A DNA stretch of 35,906 nt from an uncultured archaeon (GCA_964475145.1 CAYYVK010000003.1:1-35906), one strand, 5' to 3'; counted from the stretch's first letter, positions 9,966-30,348 are shown. A program made the numbers and translations. Notes: a model not told the origin generated them from the letters alone.

Positions 9966-10053
9966 GCCTCGGTCGTCTAGATCGAAAGAGGAAAATGGTC
10001 TAGGATACAGGTCTGTCACACCTGTGACACGGGTTCAAATCCCGTCCGAGGCG
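9966..10053 (+). tRNA. tRNA-Asp(GTC) with 15-nt D-loop intron (9981-9995, position 15/16)
   Basis: Acceptor GCCTCGG/CCGAGGC+G, anticodon arm CAGGT-CTGTCAC-ACCTG, T arm ACGGG-TTCAAAT-CCCGT. Removing 9981-9995 restores GTCTAGTGGTCTAGGAT. Confidence 0.9.
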
Positions 10054-25116: not shown

Positions 25117-25683
25117 ATGATAAAAAGCCTTACACTGTATTTCATCTTGTTCATGACTTTAATTTTTATTATTCAAAACATGGTAGACTTGGACGATTTT
25201 GCATTTGTTCCAGCATTACTCCTAAAAAGACCTTGGACGCTCTTTACTTCTATTTTCTTACATGCTGATATAAGCCATCTACTTTTTAATATGTTTGCTC
25301 TCTTCATCTTCGGGAGTTATTTAGAAAGAATAATCCCTCAAAAAGATTTTCTTATGTTATTTCTTCTTTCTGGGATAATAGGCAACATAGGATATATGGT
25401 AACAACCTTTGATCCGAGTATTCCAGCAGTAGGAGCTTCTGGTGGTATCTATGGTATCATTGGAGGGCTTGCAACTATAAGACCCTTTGCTATTGTTTAT
25501 ATAAACTTTGTGCCTCTTCCGATGATACTTGCTGCAACATTCTGGGGTATTTCTGAATTTTTAGGGCTTTTTACACCTTCTTATATTGCACGAGGGGCAC
25601 ACCTATTTGGTTTATTGTCCGGCATTATCTACGCACTTGGTATAAGAAGGCTTTTAAATTATAAAAAGCATAGTTTTTTCTAG
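25117..25683 (+). CDS. Rhomboid-family intramembrane serine protease
   Basis: PWTLFTSIFLH...HLLFNM, GASG catalytic Ser, AHLFG catalytic His, multiple TM segments. Confidence 0.93.
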   Translation: MIKSLTLYFILFMTLIFIIQNMVDLDDFAFVPALLLKRPWTLFTSIFLHADISHLLFNMFALFIFGSYLERIIPQKDFLMLFLLSGIIGNIGYMVTTFDPSIPAVGASGGIYGIIGGLATIRPFAIVYINFVPLPMILAATFWGISEFLGLFTPSYIARGAHLFGLLSGIIYALGIRRLLNYKKHSFF

Positions 25684-25718: not shown

Positions 25719-25988
25719 ATGCAGAAAAATACTTTAAAAAACATAATTAAAATAGTTAAATGCTTAGAAGAGTCAAAAAATGACTGGATTTGGCTAACAG
25801 CTATAGCAAAACGCGTAAAATTGCATAGAACTACTGTTTCTCGCCTTATCAACAAGCACTTAACACTTTTTATTGAACAAACCACACTAGAGCCTTTCAA
25901 CATAAAAATGATAAAACTTAAGCCAGATTCTAACCTTCAGTCAATCCTAAAATTTTTACTAATAAAAGAGAAAGTCAAGAAAAGTTAG
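25719..25988 (+). CDS. Small HTH DNA-binding protein
   Basis: IWLTAIAKRVKLHRTTVSRLINKHL; SD GGTGAG upstream of ATG. Confidence 0.75.
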   Translation: MQKNTLKNIIKIVKCLEESKNDWIWLTAIAKRVKLHRTTVSRLINKHLTLFIEQTTLEPFNIKMIKLKPDSNLQSILKFLLIKEKVKKS

Positions 25989-26700
25989 AACTTGAGGGAG
26001 TTTGAGAGCTTTCAATCGCTTCAAAGCGATTTGAATCGGTTTTTCCTGTATATCTAACCCATCCTTTGTTATACTTTTCGAATCGCTCAATTTCAGTAGT
26101 CCTCTTGAGCATATTTGATAGCAATCCGCGAAGAGCTGAAATGCTTATTCCAAGCTTAGACGCCAATTCTTCATAGCTTATTTCCTTAGCCCCCTTAACT
26201 ATCTCTAATAGTTCTTTCATTTTATTTGTTAATGGTAATTGTGCTTCAATTTTTTCTATTTTTCCTGTCAGTTCCGATCTTATAGGTTCAGGAGTCTTTT
26301 TTACTATGTTTTTAAGGTCAACAAGTATATTTTGAATTATTTCAAATCTTTTTTGATCATTTTCTTCATGAATTTTAACTAAATTAATAAATTCTGATAT
26401 TTTTTCATCAAATTTATGATCAAACCAGTCTTTTGTTAATATTTGAGATTCAATTCTATCTAAAGAAGATTCAATCCTTTTAATAAAATGCGCTGTATAG
26501 CCAGCTGCAACACCTAATTGTAAAGAATCTTTCTGAAGTTCCAACCTAGCTTGAGGCTGAAGTTCTTCTTCGCTTTGAAGCGCTTCAAAGCGATTTAAAT
26601 CTATACTTGAAGCGCTTTGAAGCGATGTTGCATCGCTTTGAAGCGCTTCCTTCTTGCCTCTTACTCTTAATATTTGTTTAATTTTGTCCCAAAAACCCAC
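25975..26700 (-). CDS. Uncharacterised protein: N-terminal amphipathic helix, coiled coil, C-terminal winged helix
   Basis: MGFWDKIKQIL (GTG 26700; TTG 26709 possible), helical core, LTNKMKELLEIV...ISYEELASKLGISISALRGLLSNM...GWVRY. Confidence 0.75.
   Translation of the reverse strand: MGFWDKIKQILRVRGKKEALQSDATSLQSASSIDLNRFEALQSEEELQPQARLELQKDSLQLGVAAGYTAHFIKRIESSLDRIESQILTKDWFDHKFDEKISEFINLVKIHEENDQKRFEIIQNILVDLKNIVKKTPEPIRSELTGKIEKIEAQLPLTNKMKELLEIVKGAKEISYEELASKLGISISALRGLLSNMLKRTTEIERFEKYNKGWVRYTGKTDSNRFEAIESSQTPSSSNFS
26007..26038. repeat. Three tandem 10-bp palindromic units (array A)
   Basis: AG-CTTTCAATCG-CTTCAAAGCG-ATTTGAATCG; contains AATCGCTT-CA-AAGCGATT at 26014-26031. Confidence 0.85.
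26571..26648. repeat. About seven tandem ~10-bp palindromic units (array B)
   Basis: CGCTTTGAAG CGCTTCAAAG CGATTTAAAT CTATACTTGAAG CGCTTTGAAG CGATGTTGCAT CGCTTTGAAG CGCTT; CG at 26571, 26581, 26591, 26613, 26623, 26634, 26644. Confidence 0.9.
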
Positions 26701-26984
26701 ACCAATCAATTATTCTTTAAATTCTCACTTTATAAAGTTTTTCTTGAACACTCACTTTCTAACATTTGTTATTGTTTAAGAGTTATCGTTATTTAGTCGC
26801 ACGAAACTCTCACTTTACTAAGGAACAGACGAGTTCGCTTGTCCCCCCAACCAATACACTCTAAAATATATGTCTCATCACATATTTCAACCAACTTCAC
26901 GTTTTTCTTGATTATTATATACGGTAAAATATATATAAAAGAATAGAAAAATATTTATTAAATTAGTATAATTGTACCAAAAAT

Positions 26985-27197
26985 ATGGAAAAATTTTTAA
27001 TAGCATTTGATATACCGGCCAATGAGCGTCTTTTCAGGAAAAAAATAAACCAACTTCTAAAGAAAATTGGTGCAAAAATGGTTCAAAAGTCACTTTGGGA
27101 ATCAGAGGATCTTCCTAAGTTGTTAAGGATTGCTATATTAATCAAAAATATTGGTGGTATTGCTTACGTTTACCAAGGTAAAGTTCTGTTTTCATGA
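26985..27197 (+). CDS. Stand-alone Cas2/VapD/PaaX-central-domain-like small protein
   Basis: FLIAFDIP...RKKINQLLKKIGAKMVQKSLW matches the Cas2-fold pattern hhh(Y/F)DI...R...L...G...Q.SVW. Confidence 0.7.
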   Translation: MEKFLIAFDIPANERLFRKKINQLLKKIGAKMVQKSLWESEDLPKLLRIAILIKNIGGIAYVYQGKVLFS

Positions 27198-27259
27198 TTT
27201 ATTCTCACCAAACTATATTTTCCAGAGCATATAATTATGAAAAGAGAGAGCTCAAAATT

Positions 27260-27289
27260 ACTTAGAGATAATCAATTTTATCTATAAGT
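27260..27289. other. dif-like Xer recombination site 1
   Basis: ACTTAGAGATAA-TCAATT-TTATCTATAAGT: 12-bp inverted arms (1 mismatch), 6-bp spacer, ATAA-N6-TTAT core. Confidence 0.8.
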
Positions 27290-27310
27290 TAATAAGAAAA
27301 CTTTATCTTT

Positions 27311-27340
27311 ACTTAGAGATAATAAATATTATGAGTTATG
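27311..27340. other. dif-like site 2 overlapping the recombinase start codon
   Basis: ACTTAGAGATAA-TAAATA-TTATGAGTTATG; left arm identical to site 1, right arm degenerate. Confidence 0.6.
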
Positions 27341-28242
27341 AACTAACAAACTTCAATAGTGTAAACAAGATGCTAGGTGAATTAAAACTCTTAACAAGAA
27401 GTAAAAACACAGAACTTACTTACCTAAAAAGTTTAAAAAGCTTCTTCAACCAAATAGGAGTTTCAGACCCTGATGCGTTAATAGAAAAAATAAAGAATAA
27501 AGAGATTGATGCAAACGAAATTTATAAGCAGTATGTTGTTAGCTTAGCTTCTCGAAACATTGCTCCAAAATCTGTGGCAGCATGGGCAGCTGGTGTTAAA
27601 AAATTCTTTTCAGCGAATGGGATTGAGGTAAAACCTATACCCATAAAGGTATATCCTCTTCATGAAGATACCCTACCAACAAAAGAAGATCTAAAAAAAG
27701 TATTAGAGAGTTCTTCTTTAAAAGCTCGTTTATGTATTCTAATCTTGTTGTCCTCAGGTTTAAGAGTAGGAGAATTGCATCAACTTAAAGTTGGTGACAT
27801 AGAGTTAGATAGAGACCCTCCTGTGATAAGGGTAAGAGGAATTAGCGCCAAGGAAAGAAAAAGTAGGATAACATTCATTTCGCCACAAGCCAAGGAGGTT
27901 TTGAAAGAATACTTAGAAAAGAGAAAATTAAGCGAAAAGCTAACACCTGACTCACCTTTACTCGTCACAGATGATGGAGAGCCTATGTCCTACCAGAATC
28001 TACAGTACATTCTAAACAACGCTTTCAAAAAAGTTGCAAAAAAGGTTGGGAAACGTTATTCCTTACATCCACACTCTCTTAGAAAATGGTTCAAAACTCA
28101 ATTGATATCGGCCGGTACTCCTGGCCCGATAGTCGATAGGTTAGTAGGGCATTCTAGATATTTAGCTAGGGAGTACGAGCTTTATACAGAAGAGCAACTT
28201 AGAGAATGGTATATAAAAAGTATGGATGTCTTGAGGATTTAA
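27331..28242 (+). CDS. Tyrosine recombinase, XerA-like
   Basis: SSGLRVGE (R), AKERK (K), HPHSLRK (H-x-x-R), LVGH, REYELY (Y); N-terminal core-binding domain; 303 aa. Confidence 0.92.
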   Translation: MSYELTNFNSVNKMLGELKLLTRSKNTELTYLKSLKSFFNQIGVSDPDALIEKIKNKEIDANEIYKQYVVSLASRNIAPKSVAAWAAGVKKFFSANGIEVKPIPIKVYPLHEDTLPTKEDLKKVLESSSLKARLCILILLSSGLRVGELHQLKVGDIELDRDPPVIRVRGISAKERKSRITFISPQAKEVLKEYLEKRKLSEKLTPDSPLLVTDDGEPMSYQNLQYILNNAFKKVAKKVGKRYSLHPHSLRKWFKTQLISAGTPGPIVDRLVGHSRYLAREYELYTEEQLREWYIKSMDVLRI

Positions 28243-28529
28243 CCCTTCTCTTTTATCTGAGACATTTTTACTAATGCATTGTCCAAAGCTCTTGCTACTT
28301 CCTCACCAACACGCGTTAGCTTTACTATCTTTATTCTACCCTTCTTTTCAAATTCTACCAACCCTAAATCGTTAAATAAATCTAACAACTTAACTGTATG
28401 AGAATAAGTTATATCCGTATTTTTAGAGAGAATTGTTGCATATTTTGGTCCTTCCCTTAGCATTACCAGCATTTTGACGGGTTTTACTCGTAAAAACAGG
28501 CGTGGTGCAAGCTTTTCACGCACAACCAA
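28239..28529 (-). CDS. Small MarR-like winged-helix protein
   Basis: YATILSKNTDITYSHTVKLLDLFNDLGLVEFEKKGRIKIVKLTRVG. Confidence 0.85.
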   Translation of the reverse strand: MVVREKLAPRLFLRVKPVKMLVMLREGPKYATILSKNTDITYSHTVKLLDLFNDLGLVEFEKKGRIKIVKLTRVGEEVARALDNALVKMSQIKEKG

Positions 28530-28692: not shown

Positions 28693-30348
28693 ATGGAAGA
28701 GATCTTTAAGAAGCATGCGCTGATTAATGCAGTACAACATAAAGGTAAAGCTAGTGTTCAAGCTGTCTTGAGCAGATCTATAGCTGAAAGACCTGAACTA
28801 AAAACTAGAATTAACGAGATTGTTAAAGTTATTCAAAAAATAGTTGACGAAGTGAATGCGCTCTCGCTAGAAGAGCAAAAAAGGAAAATAGAAGAGCTTG
28901 GTATAAAATTAGAAAGGAAAGTAAAAGAAGGGTTGCCTGAGCTTAAGGGTGCAGAAGTTGGAAAAGTAGTAATGAGATTGGCACCTTTTCCCTCTGGTCC
29001 TTTACATTTAGGTAACGCAAGAATGGCAATCTTGAACGACGAATATGTGAAAAAATATAAGGGGAAATTATTACTTGTTTTTGACGATACAATAGGTAGT
29101 AAGGAAAAGAGTATACTACCAGAAGCTTATGAGATGATAGAAGATGGGCTGAAATGGTTAGGAGTAGAATTCCATGAAAAAGTGTATAAGTCTGATAGGC
29201 TTGAATTGTTTTACAAGTATGGAAGAGAGATTATAGAAAAAGGATTTGCATATGTTTGTACATGCTCAGAAAATGAAATCAGAGAGAATAGAAGGAATGG
29301 AATAGAGTGTTCGTGTAGAAGTAGGAGTGTTCAAGAAAACCTTGATTTGTGGAAGAAAATGCTTGAAGGAAAATTCAAAGAAGGCGAGGCGACAGTAAGA
29401 ATTAAAACTAATATGAAACATCCAAACCCGGCTTTTAGAGACAGAGTCTTGTTTAGGATTAGTGAAAGAGAACATCCAAGAGTAGGAAAAAAATATAAGG
29501 TATGGCCGATGTTAGAATTCTCCTGGGCAGTAGACGATTGGTTGTTAGGAATAACCCATATTTTGAGAGGAAAACAGCTTGTGATAGAGGATATGATGGA
29601 AGAATTTATATGGGAAAAAATGGGCTGGCCAAAAAAGGAATTCATTCATTATGGGATGTTAAAGATAGAAGGAGCTGTTTTGAGTAAGAGCGAAACTAGA
29701 AAAATGATAGAGAAAAGGGTTATAAGTGGTTGGGAAGATCCTAGAACATGGTCATTACAATCTTTGAGAAAAAGGGGATTTCAACCTGAGGCTATAAGAA
29801 AATTTATAATTAAGATGGGCTTAAGCGAGGCAGACGTTTCCGTCCCGTTAGAAATACTTTACGCAGAAAATAGAAAGTTAATAGACCCTATAGCAAACAG
29901 GTATATGGCAGTAATCTCGCCTGTATGCATTTCTGTAGAAAATGCACCAGAACTCTTTTCCACAGAAATTCGAATGCATCCAGATTTCCCAGAAAGAGGG
30001 ACAAGGAAAATACCAGTCAACACTCAAAAAATATACTTGGAAAGTGAGGATATAAAAAAGTTAGAAGGAAAAGAAGTAGGATTAATAAACCTTTTTTCTG
30101 TAAGAATCGGTAAAAAAGTCGAATTTTTAAGTAATGAGATAAGCTATGAAATTCCAAAGATCCATTGGGTCTCTGAACCAAACGTGAAAGTTAAGATAAT
30201 AATGCCAAACGGAGAAGTGAAAAAAGCCTTAGCAGAACCATCGATAGAAGAGCTTAAAGAAGGAGAAATTATTCAACTCTATCGTATAGGCTTTTGTAGA
30301 GTTGACAAAATGGGAGAGGATAAAGTTTTATATTTTGCACATAAATAG
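28693..30348 (+). CDS. gltX: Glutamate--tRNA ligase (archaeal)
   Basis: [14 protein letters not shown] (HIGH), LSKS (KMSKS), GWEDPR, ends YFAHK. Confidence 0.97.

What the first reader, a model, noticed from the sequence alone, without database searches (positions are those of the whole stretch)
25719..28529. Candidate archaeal terminus/segregation module: Xer recombinase + dif sites + three HTH genes + in-gene phased palindromes
Seen: a compact 2.8-kb block between rhomboid and gltX. It holds a catalytically intact tyrosine recombinase with two ATAA-N6-TTAT sites just upstream, two small HTH genes, a Cas2-fold gene, and an amphipathic-helix/coiled-coil/wHTH protein whose gene carries palindromic arrays. 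No tRNA att site or replication/virion genes are visible. Known: Xer/dif resolves chromosome dimers; bacterial Noc (N-terminal amphipathic helix, palindromic sites) and MatP/matS link DNA to the membrane or divisome; archaea generally lack FtsK/KOPS guidance. Inference: the wHTH protein may bind the arrays and tether the dif region to the membrane, positioning dimer resolution. I know of no described system like this in archaea.
Basis: partly seen in the sequence, partly recalled or inferred. Interest (0 to 1): 0.82.

Follow-up and report, generated by a model that had tools for sequence, protein, structure and literature searches.

The report
Divergent archaeal Xer/dif beside a dif-linked wHTH gene
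A tiny hot-spring archaeon keeps its only site-specific recombinase, that enzyme's likely 28-bp target site and an uncharacterised membrane-helix/DNA-binding protein gene full of odd palindromes side by side, and relatives keep the target site next to that protein gene even when the recombinase gene has moved away.

Summary
The block is chromosomal, not mobile, in an Aenigmatarchaeota genome (618 kb, 50 contigs). D (27331-28242) is the genome's only tyrosine recombinase. It sits in the slot that canonical XerA holds in sister genera, but scores below the XerA cut-off (123.6 against 220 bits). The site at 27261-27288 is an 11-6-11 inverted repeat. Its arms are conserved and its spacer varies in close relatives. 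It shares 18 of 28 bases with the tested Pyrococcus abyssi dif. Arm sequence tracks recombinase type (GAGATAA or CGTATAA), and half-sites lie at xer promoters.

The new result is that the full site stays 0.5-0.9 kb upstream of gene B, even where xer lies 5-17 kb away or on another contig. B has an N-terminal amphipathic helix, a repeat linker, helices and a C-terminal wHTH. Its in-gene palindromes are unique in the genome and constrained at nucleotide level. B is also preceded by conserved, strand-specific GTGAGAGTT boxes. Some homologues carry an XisH-like nuclease-fold domain.

B and Xer presence are uncorrelated among 40 relatives. The locus lies nearer the GC-skew minimum and cdc6 than the terminus. 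The Cas2-like gene is multi-copy. No binding was tested.

The parts
25719..25988 (+). Gene A: 89-aa wHTH protein, tail-to-tail with B and overlapping it by 14 nt
   Evidence: ORF. Weak HTH_IclR and MarR matches. Adjacent to B in 25 of 37 distinct B loci (my count).
25975..26709 (-). Gene B: N-terminal cationic amphipathic helix, repeat linker, conserved LQLGVAAGYT helical core, C-terminal wHTH
   Evidence: 102 clusters at E<=0.001 among 1.84 billion representatives. AF2 model pLDDT 68. wHTH residues 159-223 match MarR/ArsR folds, Z 10.7, rmsd 1.2 A over 64 residues. muH 0.61, charge +2.
26008..26037 (.). 3'-end in-gene palindrome (AATCGCTT-TG-AAGCGATT), encoding NRFEAIES
26570..26650 (.). 5'-end in-gene palindrome array built from CGCTT/AAGCG half-sites, encoding the EALQS / SLQS / RFEALQS repeats
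   Evidence: Rare-codon bias. RNA fold z = -4.7. G/T swaps that keep the half-sites.
26720..26816 (-). Three strand-specific boxes (consensus AAAGTGAGAGTT on the B-sense strand) at 26720-26731, 26747-26758 and 26805-26816, upstream of B
   Evidence: AGTGAGA occurs in two or more copies in 25 of 32 B-upstream regions, with the core hexamer only in B-sense orientation in the 31 windows of 480 nt. Not enriched genome-wide: 32 AAGTGAGA in 618 kb. This is the only triple cluster.
26985..27197 (+). Gene C: 70-aa solo Cas2-like protein (FDIP motif), one of 5 matches in this genome
   Evidence: No Cas1 found in the genome.
27261..27288 (.). dif-like core site CTTAGAGATAA-TCAATT-TTATCTATAAG (11-6-11)
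   Evidence: 18 of 28 bases identical to the P. abyssi dif; 0.005% of random 28-mers reach that.
27303..27339 (.). Extra arm-type half-sites: TTATCTTTA (27303-27311), and a left arm CTTAGAGATAA (27312-27322) with a degenerate right arm overlapping the ATG of D
   Evidence: (repeat family D4).
27331..28242 (+). Gene D: divergent Xer-like tyrosine recombinase ('type A')
28239..28529 (-). Gene E: 96-aa wHTH, a constant neighbour of xer and gltX
   Evidence: Within about 3 kb of the recombinase in 13 of 16 loci and in 7 of 7 metagenome loci.

Best explanation
The block joins two vertically inherited chromosomal units of Aenigmatarchaeota.

Unit 1 is a single-recombinase Xer system. D is a divergent Xer-like tyrosine recombinase that has taken the genomic slot of canonical XerA. 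Its substrate is most likely the 28-bp site at 27261-27288, 42 bp upstream of its start codon. Extra half-sites, one over the ATG, probably let D repress its own gene (inferred).

Unit 2 is the A-B(-C) locus. B is a DNA-binding wHTH protein with an N-terminal cationic amphipathic helix. The dif-like site belongs physically to the upstream region of B. It stays there when xer moves away, and it does so for both recombinase/site types.

My best reading is that B, perhaps with A, assembles on DNA next to dif. The candidate binding sites are the GTGAGAGTT boxes and/or the palindrome arrays inside its own gene. From there B would act as an accessory or organising factor for Xer recombination, possibly at the membrane. 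That would fill the spatial or directional control role that FtsK or plasmid accessory proteins play in bacteria.

Shown in silico: the anatomy, the synteny, the covariation of sites with recombinase type, and the nucleotide-level constraint on the arrays.
Inferred: recombination at the site, autoregulation, B binding, membrane association, and any B-Xer functional coupling.

My odds: Xer/dif assignment about 0.8; functional B-dif coupling about 0.35.
For: Not mobile. The order xer-E-gltX-L7Ae-S28e-L24e holds in 13 of 16 relatives' loci and in 5 of 7 metagenome loci (the other two, L082 and L085, end at E). The closest relative, L080, keeps the whole kinase-to-L24e order.

Same slot, two enzymes. 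Relatives with only about 30%-identical recombinases at this position carry canonical XerA (NF040815, 285.5 and 252.3 bits against a cut-off of 220). D and its G005 orthologue score 123.6 and 119.6 bits. D is the only PF00589 hit in the genome. Its best PDB matches are the XerA entries 4A8E and 5HXY, with catalytic residues aligned.

The site. In the three closest metagenome relatives, L080, L081 and L082 (93, 80 and 69% Xer identity), the arms are conserved and the spacers all differ: TCAATT (window), then TCTGTA, CTATGA, AGAATA. Identity to the tested P. abyssi dif (oligo in the Methods of PMC2958812) is 18 of 28 for the window and 22 of 28 for G040. Random 28-mers average 8.7.

Covariation. 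Type-A genomes carry GAGATAA-N6-TTATCTC sites. Canonical-XerA genomes carry CGTATAA-N6-TTATACG sites. I saw no mixed case among the genomes or contigs where a site was found, about 11 type A and 8 type B by my count. Half-sites lie just upstream of xer: TTATACGAACT in 7 of 9 type-B loci, and AGAGATAA in the window, L080, L081, G014 and G031.

dif stays with B. A full site lies 502-896 nt upstream of B in 8 of 29 distinct B genes that have at least 900 nt of upstream sequence, plus 2 with shorter flanks. The G000 background predicts about 0.4 in the 29 windows (6 sites per 618 kb). In G038 and G040 xer is about 17 kb away, and in L076 about 10 kb. In G031, G034 and G009 it is on another contig. 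In G023 it is 5.3 kb away, with B at the adjoining contig end.

B as a DNA protein. The wHTH fold is clear. At least 12 homologue clusters carry a C-terminal domain with an E...PD...ExK motif. That domain matches XisH structures at Z 11.9, rmsd 2.7 A over 107 residues. xisH is needed for XisF-mediated excision (passage in PMC4874684).

The arrays. In repeat regions Ala is GCG in 58% of 108 codons, against 11% of 234 in the core. Arg is CGC in 38% against 9%. Between the window and L080 the array has 2 synonymous and 6 non-synonymous changes, against 31 and 13 in the core. The changes swap G and T while keeping the CGCTT half-sites. A recognition-helix N-cap residue is E or Q in 8 of 8 CAAT-type genes and in 0 of 18 others.
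Against: No association in gene content. Among 40 relatives, 27 have a recombinase match and 27 have B. Eighteen have both (18.2 expected by chance), 9 have only a recombinase, 9 have only B, and 4 have neither. B therefore works without Xer in several lineages. G015, for example, is 90% complete with no recombinase match. Completeness of the relatives ranges from 71 to 97%.

Incomplete linkage. In 21 of the 29 well-flanked B loci no dif-like site was found upstream under my criteria. In G014 the site lies with a C gene on a separate 2.2-kb contig. Under my criteria the closest relative, L080, has a degenerate right arm, 7 of 11 symmetric.

Synteny as an alternative. The map-A-B...xer-E-gltX region is a generally syntenic housekeeping neighbourhood. 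Linkage could therefore be ancestral order, protected by B's promoter and by gene C.

Not at a terminus. Searches place the locus nearer the skew minimum. The skew correlates with gene orientation (r 0.77-0.85) and is weak.

Array-helix covariation. It rests on 4 changes on a poorly resolved tree. Only 1 independent pair lies on well-supported branches.

Other candidate targets. The GTGAGAGTT boxes, not the arrays, are what is conserved across the whole family. The arrays could be kept by palindrome-driven template switching. C is multi-copy.

No experiment or expression data exist for any part.
Confidence: 0.5

Rival explanations
1. Synteny only. D and the site are a Xer/dif pair. B (with A) is an autoregulated transcription factor or membrane-associated regulator unrelated to recombination. 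The dif site merely sits in the shared divergent upstream region by ancestry.
For: B and recombinase presence are statistically independent (18 with both, against 18.2 expected). B keeps its GTGAGAGTT boxes in loci without any site. The whole neighbourhood (map, rhomboid, gltX, ribosomal protein genes) is syntenic.
Against: In at least four lineages (f5: G038, G040 and L076; f2: G031 and G034; G009; G023 with L061) the break fell in the short dif-xer interval rather than in the 0.5-0.9 kb between dif and B. I saw no case of the full site staying with xer while B lies elsewhere. Long-form B homologues carry an XisH-like domain.
Confidence: 0.3
2. The in-gene palindromes have no sequence-specific binding function. 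They are by-products of a heptad or short peptide repeat in a disordered linker, kept palindromic by slippage and template-switch (quasi-palindrome) mutation, or they act only as mRNA hairpins.
For: The peptide pattern [AS]-[LI]-x-S recurs even where the DNA differs (ALQS, INQS, INHS, IES). CAAT-type arrays are not palindromic. Differences between the window and L080 look like clustered template-switch events, for example TTTGAA changed to TTCAAA. The 5' region folds strongly as RNA, z = -4.7.
Against: The rare codons GCG, CGC and AGC are kept across genera whose cores are about 50% identical. Amino acids change (A to S and S to A) while the half-sites persist. The N-terminal repeat type matches the C-terminal tail type in about 12 of 14 genes with a tail of about 10 residues or more (my count). 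The recognition-helix residue tracks array type 8 of 8 against 0 of 18. The predicted RNA structure is not conserved between the window and L080 (-38.8 against -25.0 kcal/mol, different pairing).
Confidence: 0.3
3. The 11-6-11 palindrome is an operator for one of the local wHTH proteins (B, A or E), not a recombinase substrate. The half-sites at xer reflect co-regulation.
For: Dimeric wHTH operators also show conserved arms with free spacers. Three HTH genes are adjacent. Extra half-sites cluster near promoters.
Against: The invariant inner ATAA-N6-TTAT, the 11-6-11 geometry and 18-22 of 28 identities to a biochemically tested dif. Arm type switches with recombinase type. Genomes with B but no recombinase match, such as G004 (L075), G012 (L024), G015 (L027) and G019 (L035), show no such site upstream of B.
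Confidence: 0.07
4. The block is an integrated mobile element, an integron, or an element that exploits Xer (IMEX), and D is its integrase.
For: D also matches phage integrase families: PHROG 216 and PHROG 1. The Cas2-like gene is multi-copy. The 64%-identical copy in G001 lies beside a tRNA 3' end in a GC-rich stretch away from gltX.
Against: Position is conserved between housekeeping genes across the order. No flanking att repeats or tRNA are present. No replication or virion genes are present. The integron-integrase model scores 52.7 bits against a cut-off of 265, and integron integrases need an extra domain (passage in PMC9668308). No second full site lies on the far side of C. Contigs from other samples show no joints.
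Confidence: 0.03

Closest known systems
Archaeal XerA/dif (Pyrococcus abyssi, Thermoplasma, Thermococcus)
   Same: A single tyrosine recombinase, no FtsK, and a 28-bp site of 11-bp inverted arms with a 6-bp spacer. The window's site shares 18 of 28 bases with the tested P. abyssi dif. The best structural-sequence matches of D are XerA entries.
   Different: D is below the XerA equivalog cut-off (123.6 against 220 bits), whereas sister genera carry canonical XerA in the same slot. Thermococcales dif sites are not next to xerA and lie in the termination region (passage in PMC2958812). Here the site is 42 bp from the gene, and the locus is not at the skew-defined terminus in relatives.
Bacterial single-recombinase systems with the dif site next to the recombinase gene: XerS/difSL (passage in PMC2958812) and XerH/difH (recalled)
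   Same: A divergent single Xer replaces the canonical enzyme and is encoded next to its own dif-type site.
   Different: XerS still depends on FtsK and lies at the terminus. Here there is no FtsK. In several relatives the site follows gene B rather than xer.
Haloarchaeal dif-like sites upstream of a xerA operon, and TrmBL2 acting on dif-flanking DNA in T. kodakarensis (Yamaura et al. 2025, PMC11840125; abstract and section 8 read)
   Same: A dif-like element lies upstream of xerA. A wHTH-type DNA-binding protein acts on DNA around dif, independently of Xer. The dif site lies in a long non-coding stretch (about 0.7 kb in G018).
   Different: TrmBL2 is a genome-wide nucleoid protein, not encoded at dif. 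B has no detectable relation to TrmB beyond the wHTH fold. No 3C or ChIP data exist here.
Noc, RocS and RicO DNA-membrane tethers, and ParB/parS with parS inside spo0J (RocS and RicO from search-listing abstracts; Noc and spo0J recalled)
   Same: An HTH DNA-binding protein with an amphipathic membrane-type helix, palindromic sites inside its own gene, and an origin-proximal rather than terminal position in two relatives.
   Different: No ParB or other Pfam family matches B above cut-off. The helix is N-terminal, as in Noc, but membrane binding is untested. The arrays occur only in gene B, not dispersed across the genome.
XisH/XisI accessory factors of XisF site-specific recombination
   Same: Long-form B homologues end in a domain matching XisH structures 2INB and 2OKF (Z 11.9) with an E...PD...ExK motif. 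xisH is required for excision and may set its direction (passage in PMC4874684).
   Different: The window's B lacks this domain, and no separate copy was found in the genome. XisF is a serine recombinase. The PD-(D/E)xK fold is widespread.

Membership tests
XerA (NCBIfam NF040815 recomb_XerA_Arch) | Score over the curated equivalog cut-off (220 bits) | tested here: not met
   123.6 bits for D and 119.6 for the G005 orthologue. The syntenic recombinases of G006 and G013 score 285.5 and 252.3.
XerA / tyrosine recombinase | Catalytic R...K...HxxR...H/W...Y set | tested here: met
   The R of GLRVGEL, HSLR, GHS and the Y of ELYTE align with 4A8E and 5HXY. They are invariant in 10 orthologues: R145, H248, R251, H274, Y285.
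Xer/dif system | Chromosomally encoded, vertically inherited, sole recombinase of the genome | tested here: met
   One PF00589 match in the genome. Conserved synteny with gltX and ribosomal protein genes.
Xer/dif system | A single 28-bp 11-6-11 site with ATAA-N6-TTAT, conserved arms and a free spacer | tested here: met
   The genome is only 91% complete, so 'single copy' is provisional.
Xer/dif system | Recombination at the site; resolution of chromosome dimers | not testable with these tools
   Needs protein and DNA, or genetics.
Xer/dif system (bacterial and Thermococcales paradigm) | dif lies in the replication termination region | tested here: not met
   Tested in relatives only. In G018 the site is about 140 kb from the skew maximum and about 45 kb from the minimum. 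In G023 it is about 50 kb from the minimum and 62 kb from cdc6. The signal is weak, and the window's own genome is too fragmented to test.
Integron integrase (TIGR02249) | Model cut-off; IntI-specific extra domain; attC cassette array | tested here: not met
   52.7 bits against a cut-off of 265. No arrays of same-strand cassettes. Criteria taken from PMC9668308.
Mobile-element integrase with att sites | Flanking direct repeats or a tRNA target; patchy presence at variable loci | tested here: not met
   The G001 copy is a possible exception.
Cas2 (TIGR01573) | Model cut-off | tested here: met
   29.0 bits against 24.5. Pfam Cas2 at 21.3 is below its 23.8 cut-off. Only residues 5-42 match.
Cas2 as part of CRISPR-Cas | cas1 or a CRISPR array in the genome or locus | tested here: not met
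   No Cas1 (PF01867) match in the genome. Five family matches are scattered over the genome.
MarR/ArsR-type winged helix (B, C-terminal domain) | wHTH fold | tested here: met
   Z 10.7, rmsd 1.2 A over 64 residues against 4XRF. All Pfam HTH families are below cut-off.
ParB/Noc | ParB N-terminal and HTH domains | tested here: inconclusive
   No ParB family among the Pfam, NCBIfam or fold matches. The helical part of the model has only moderate confidence.
Membrane-targeting amphipathic helix | Cationic amphipathic N-terminal helix that binds lipid | tested here: inconclusive
   muH 0.61 and charge +2 in the window's B. In most of 26 homologues the best 14-residue window lies at the N-terminus, with muH of about 0.44-0.85 and charge +1 to +6. 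Shuffle p-values are modest at 0.004-0.3. Lipid binding was not tested.

The most novel reading that the evidence does not exclude
B and the repeat arrays inside its own gene form a lineage-specific, self-encoded centromere-like or anchor complex. It would be a functional analogue of ParB/parS-in-spo0J combined with the Noc or RocS membrane helix. It sits origin-proximally in Aenigmatarchaeota chromosomes. The Xer core site has been placed beside it so that dimer resolution, or another Xer reaction, happens at a membrane-tethered and spatially defined DNA locus, without FtsK. Array sequence and the B recognition helix co-evolve. The XisH-like long forms would add a directionality or nuclease function.
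Probability: 0.15. Interest if true: 0.85.

Novelty: new variant of a known kind. Interest (0 to 1): 0.62.

Why it matters
How archaea control where and when XerA acts, without FtsK, is an open question. It is raised in the discussion of PMC2958812 and in PMC8371274.

This locus offers a concrete candidate: a conserved, uncharacterised protein family whose gene is the fixed neighbour of dif across two different Xer/dif specificities. It also shows in-situ replacement of canonical XerA by a divergent Xer with a matching change of site. That is a natural specificity swap which gives a compact set of recognition changes to test.

The in-gene arrays are a rare case of nucleotide-level constraint overriding the encoded peptide. 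A dif site that lies nearer the skew minimum than the terminus would, if confirmed, loosen the assumed tie between dimer resolution and termination in single-origin archaea.

Every component is small enough for in vitro tests.

Tried and rejected
Complex prediction with D (alignment A2) and B residues 55-244 (alignment A1) gave no verdict: score 0.00 in two runs, controls not folded. I do not use it as evidence either way.

The look-up of sequencing runs listed no RNA holder. Read laying on three contig-only DNA runs showed no joints, indels or alternative forms. Contigs of run X2 end at 26511 and start again at 27479.

Rfam at the permissive threshold gave only sub-threshold miRNA-like hairpin hits on the array. 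PHROGs gave only generic integrase families for D. PADLOC gave only Cas2 for C and weak Csa3/CARF-type wHTH hits for E. The ESM Atlas gave nothing at 0.9 or above for B.

Foldseek and VIA-align on the B model found only the wHTH domain. The helical part has no confident match.

A symmetric type-B full-site pattern with up to 3 mismatches found nothing in G006, G008, G013, G021 and G023. A right-arm pattern found a second site only in G023.

No second full site flanks gene C, so a mini-IMEX reading was dropped. The XisH-like domain has no significant match in the window's genome.

GC skew of G005:C1 showed no pattern. The first generic inverted-repeat scan was flooded by runs of N and was repeated without them. 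A generic 11-6-11 repeat with at least 10 of 11 matches occurs 16 times in the genome, so symmetry alone is not distinctive.

The covariation between a wing residue (IERF against IQRF) and array type looked phylogenetic, and I did not rely on it.

Literature searches for a described equivalent found none. The terms were XerA/dif/archaea; DPANN/dif/Xer; archaea/chromosome segregation/amphipathic helix/winged helix/membrane; and Aenigmarchaeota/recombinase/dif. Supplements are closed.

Full report
WHAT IS THERE

The window is contig C3 of a 617,950-bp, 50-contig genome that is 91% complete. Titled relatives in public genome collections are all Candidatus Aenigmatarchaeota. The DNA holders are hot-spring metagenomes.

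Between rhomboid (25117-25683) and gltX (28693-30348) lie five genes:
- A, 25719-25988(+), 89 aa, weak wHTH matches.
- B, 25975-26709(-), 244 aa.
- C, 26985-27197(+), 70 aa. It passes NCBIfam cas2 at 29.0 bits against a 24.5 cut-off, and is below the Pfam cut-offs.
- D, 27331-28242(+), 303 aa, Phage_integrase at 84.9 bits.
- E, 28239-28529(-), 96 aa, weak wHTH matches.

A and B overlap tail-to-tail by 14 nt. D and E overlap by 4 nt. The only tRNA in the window is at 9966-10053.

THE RECOMBINASE

D is the only PF00589 match in the genome. Its best PDB matches are XerA of P. abyssi (4A8E) and T. acidophilum (5HXY), with R, HxxR, H and Y aligned. These residues are invariant in ten orthologues.

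Its best NCBIfam family is XerA_Arch, but at 123.6 bits, far below the 220-bit cut-off.

Among 40 relatives of the same order, 56-64%-identical orthologues ('type A') occur in 8 genomes, and G034 holds a 55%-identical fragment. Most of the other recombinase-positive relatives hold a recombinase of about 30% identity and about 275 aa ('type B'). Both types occupy the same position, next to E, gltX, L7Ae, S28e and L24e, in 13 of 16 loci examined.

Type B proteins are canonical XerA (285.5 and 252.3 bits). So D is a divergent Xer-like enzyme standing in XerA's slot. This conserved housekeeping context rules out a prophage, plasmid or integron, as do three further points: the whole gene order is kept in a 93%-identical metagenome relative (L080), there are no flanking repeats, and no joints appear in contigs of other samples. 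The integron model scores 52.7 bits against a cut-off of 265.

THE SITE

The sequence at 27261-27288 is CTTAGAGATAA-TCAATT-TTATCTATAAG, with arms symmetric at 10 of 11 positions. Of the 54 ATAA-N6-TTAT instances in the genome it is the only one with 6 of 7 outer-arm matches.

The same arms with different spacers stand upstream of xer in relatives: TCTGTA in L080, CTATGA in L081 and AGAATA in L082. This is the conservation pattern of a tyrosine-recombinase core site.

It shares 18 of 28 bases with the P. abyssi dif oligonucleotide that Cortez et al. tested (Methods passage). The G040 site shares 22 of 28. Random 28-mers of this composition average 8.7, and 0.005% reach 18.

Site 2 (27312-27339) repeats only the left arm and overlaps the ATG. 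A right-arm-like TTATCTTTA lies at 27303-27311.

Type-B genomes carry a different motif. TTATACGAACT lies just upstream of xer in 7 of 9 loci. Full sites have the form GTTCGTATAA-N6-TTATACGAAC, and the G009 site has perfect 11 of 11 arms. Arm type and recombinase type never mixed in the genomes where I found sites. This covariation, together with the invariant ATAA-N6-TTAT, is my main reason to read the sites as Xer substrates rather than HTH operators.

THE UNEXPECTED LINKAGE

A whole-genome pattern search in five type-A relatives found the full site next to B, not at xer:
- G040:C31:43794-43817, 0 mismatches, 142 bp beyond the C gene that is divergent from B. The xer gene is about 18 kb away.
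- G031:C27:19800-19823, about 760 bp upstream of B. The xer gene is on another contig.
- G014:C57, beside a C gene on a 2.2-kb contig.

Scanning all fetched loci added G038, L076 and G034. For type-B sites it added G009, G018, L066/L067, L061 and G023.

Under one fixed criterion (a TAA-N6-TTA core, at least 8 of 11 arm positions symmetric, and at least 2 G/C per arm), 8 of 29 distinct B genes with at least 900 nt of upstream sequence have a site 502-896 nt upstream. Two more with shorter flanks also have one. The window's genome has 6 such sites in 618 kb, so about 0.4 would be expected in the 29 windows. Relatives are not independent. I count at least four separate lineages in which xer and dif-B are apart.

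In G023 the site is 751 nt from the end of contig C1, and B is 71 nt from the end of C2. This reproduces the usual spacing if the two ends abut.

The other 21 well-flanked loci show no site under this criterion. Loci from genomes with no recombinase match (G004, G012, G015, G019) show none either.

GENE B

The family is small: 102 clusters at E<=0.001 among 1.84 billion representatives. Named members are Aenigmatarchaeota, with one Micrarchaeota record, and all are annotated hypothetical or given inconsistent automatic names.

Invariant residues cluster in LQLGxAAGY...IExSLxRIE and in the wHTH region. The AF2 model (pLDDT 68) gives long helices at 57-89 and 93-137 and a confident wHTH at 159-223. 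Only the wHTH finds structural matches.

The N-terminus is a cationic amphipathic helix in most homologues.

At least 12 homologue clusters are about 340 aa long, with an added C-terminal domain bearing E...PD...ExK. Its model (block pLDDT about 81-91 over residues 241-330, lower at both ends) matches XisH-family structures 2INB and 2OKF at Z 11.9, rmsd 2.7-2.8 A over 107-108 residues, and the EndoMS nuclease domain at Z 10.4. xisH is required for XisF-mediated excision and may set its direction (passage in PMC4874684).

In two loci, L062 and L078, this domain is encoded just downstream of B. In L030 it is fused. It is absent from the window's genome.

TWO KINDS OF DNA REPEAT AT B

(i) Upstream boxes. 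The boxes have the consensus AAAGTGAGAGTT. The 7-mer AGTGAGA is present in two or more copies in 25 of 32 B-upstream regions. The core hexamer AAGTGA occurs only in B-sense orientation in the 31 windows of 480 nt. There are three copies in the window, at 26720-26816. The motif is not enriched genome-wide, and this is the only triple cluster. These boxes are the family-wide candidate operator, or a leader element.

(ii) In-gene arrays. The arrays lie after the N-terminal helix and, in about half the genes, again in the C-terminal tail. Their sequence differs by lineage: GCGC-type palindromes (AAGCGCTT, CGCTT-YR-AAGCG) encoding EALQS or RFKALQS; CAAT/ATCA repeats encoding INQS or INHS; and ATCGAT-type repeats. 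The tail copies the N-terminal type.

Nucleotide-level constraint on the arrays shows in three ways:
- Rare codons. Ala is GCG in 58% of 108 codons in repeats, against 11% of 234 in the core. Arg is CGC in 38% against 9%.
- The same codons recur across genera.
- The comparison between the window and L080. The array has 2 synonymous and 6 non-synonymous changes, against 31 and 13 in the core. Paired G/T swaps change Ala and Ser while keeping every CGCTT/AAGCG half-site. One change, TTTGAA to TTCAAA, is a centre inversion.

A residue at the N-cap of the recognition helix is E or Q in 8 of 8 CAAT-type genes and in 0 of 18 others. Both traits need 4 changes on the best tree and change together. 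Only one contrast lies on well-supported branches, so independence is not shown.

The array also folds strongly as RNA (z = -4.7), but the pairing is not conserved in L080.

WHAT COUNTS AGAINST THE SEGREGATION-MODULE READING

- Gene content. Among 40 relatives, 18 have both a recombinase match and B, 9 have only one, 9 only the other, and 4 have neither. This is exactly the chance expectation.
- Position. The only Cdc6_C hit above cut-off in G023 is 62 kb from B on the same contig. In G010 the distance is 105 kb. Cumulative GC skew has its minimum near cdc6 in G023, about 50 kb from dif and B. In G010 the minimum is at B. In G018 there is a clear maximum at about 65 kb and a minimum at about 250 kb, with dif and B at 207 kb. 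G005 shows no pattern. Skew follows gene orientation (r 0.77-0.85), so these are weak signals. None of them puts the locus at a terminus.
- Gene C. It is one of 5 family matches in this genome, and G004 has 16. There is no Cas1. C lies divergent from B in 7 of 37 distinct B loci, and A lies tail-to-tail with B in 25 of 37. Only the window and L080 have both (my counts).

VERDICT

The Xer/dif assignment is well supported in silico and is a new variant: a divergent Xer with a matched change of site and promoter half-sites. dif adjacent to xerA has been proposed before, for haloarchaea (PMC11840125). For XerS it is noted in PMC2958812.

The conserved tie between dif and the B gene is a real and, as far as my four searches show, undescribed pattern. 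So are the nucleotide-constrained, lineage-specific arrays inside B.

Whether B controls Xer, tethers DNA to the membrane, or is simply a neighbouring regulator cannot be decided without experiments.

Noticed in passing
G000 contigs C9:114-320, C13:16741-16947, C2:35868-36077, C5:11752-11922 (loci L178-L180): The Cas2-like gene C is a multi-copy family with a conserved [FY]DIP motif. Each paralogue has its own perfect 16-bp palindrome upstream: TTTCACACGTGTGAAA, or TGTAATACGTATTACA with a near-copy beside it. The C9 and C13 copies are identical over about 290 nt. Their neighbours are ScpA (PF02616, 52.7 bits), a DEAD/Hef-like helicase and a MinD/ParA-type ATPase. Three of the four intact copies therefore sit beside chromosome-maintenance genes. 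G004 has 16 copies.
   Followed up: partly
L042 (G001:C4), upstream of the 64%-identical recombinase: The closest type-A orthologue among the 40 relatives lies beside the 3' end of a tRNA-like sequence in a GC-rich stretch, away from gltX. This copy might be on a mobile element, and could hint at how type A spread.
   Followed up: no
window 26840-26900 (B-C intergenic region), and the same place in L080: A block conserved between the window and L080 contains GTGATGA on the B-sense strand. This resembles a box C motif, but no matching box D was evident. Rfam found nothing here.
   Followed up: no
window 9966-10053: tRNA-Pro is called with anticodon AGG and is 88 nt long. The length and anticodon are unusual, so it may hold an intron or be mis-called.
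   Followed up: no
L050 (G018:C1, about 206.9-207.7 kb) and L029, L066: In canonical-XerA genomes about 0.5-0.7 kb between dif and B has no ORF of 45 aa or more in L050 and L029 (L066 has one unrelated 143-aa ORF). This stretch carries the GTGAGAGTT boxes. It recalls the long non-coding dif region of T. kodakarensis.
   Followed up: partly
Relatives G011, G020, G022, G030 and G015: Several genomes of this order that are 84-90% complete show no tyrosine recombinase match at all. Some Aenigmatarchaeota may do without Xer.
   Followed up: no
window 26511 and 27479 (run X2): In one other sample the assembly breaks on both sides of the stretch holding the arrays, gene C and dif. This could reflect hairpins, repeats or strain variation.
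   Followed up: no
Any genome-wide motif count misses these stretches.
   Followed up: no
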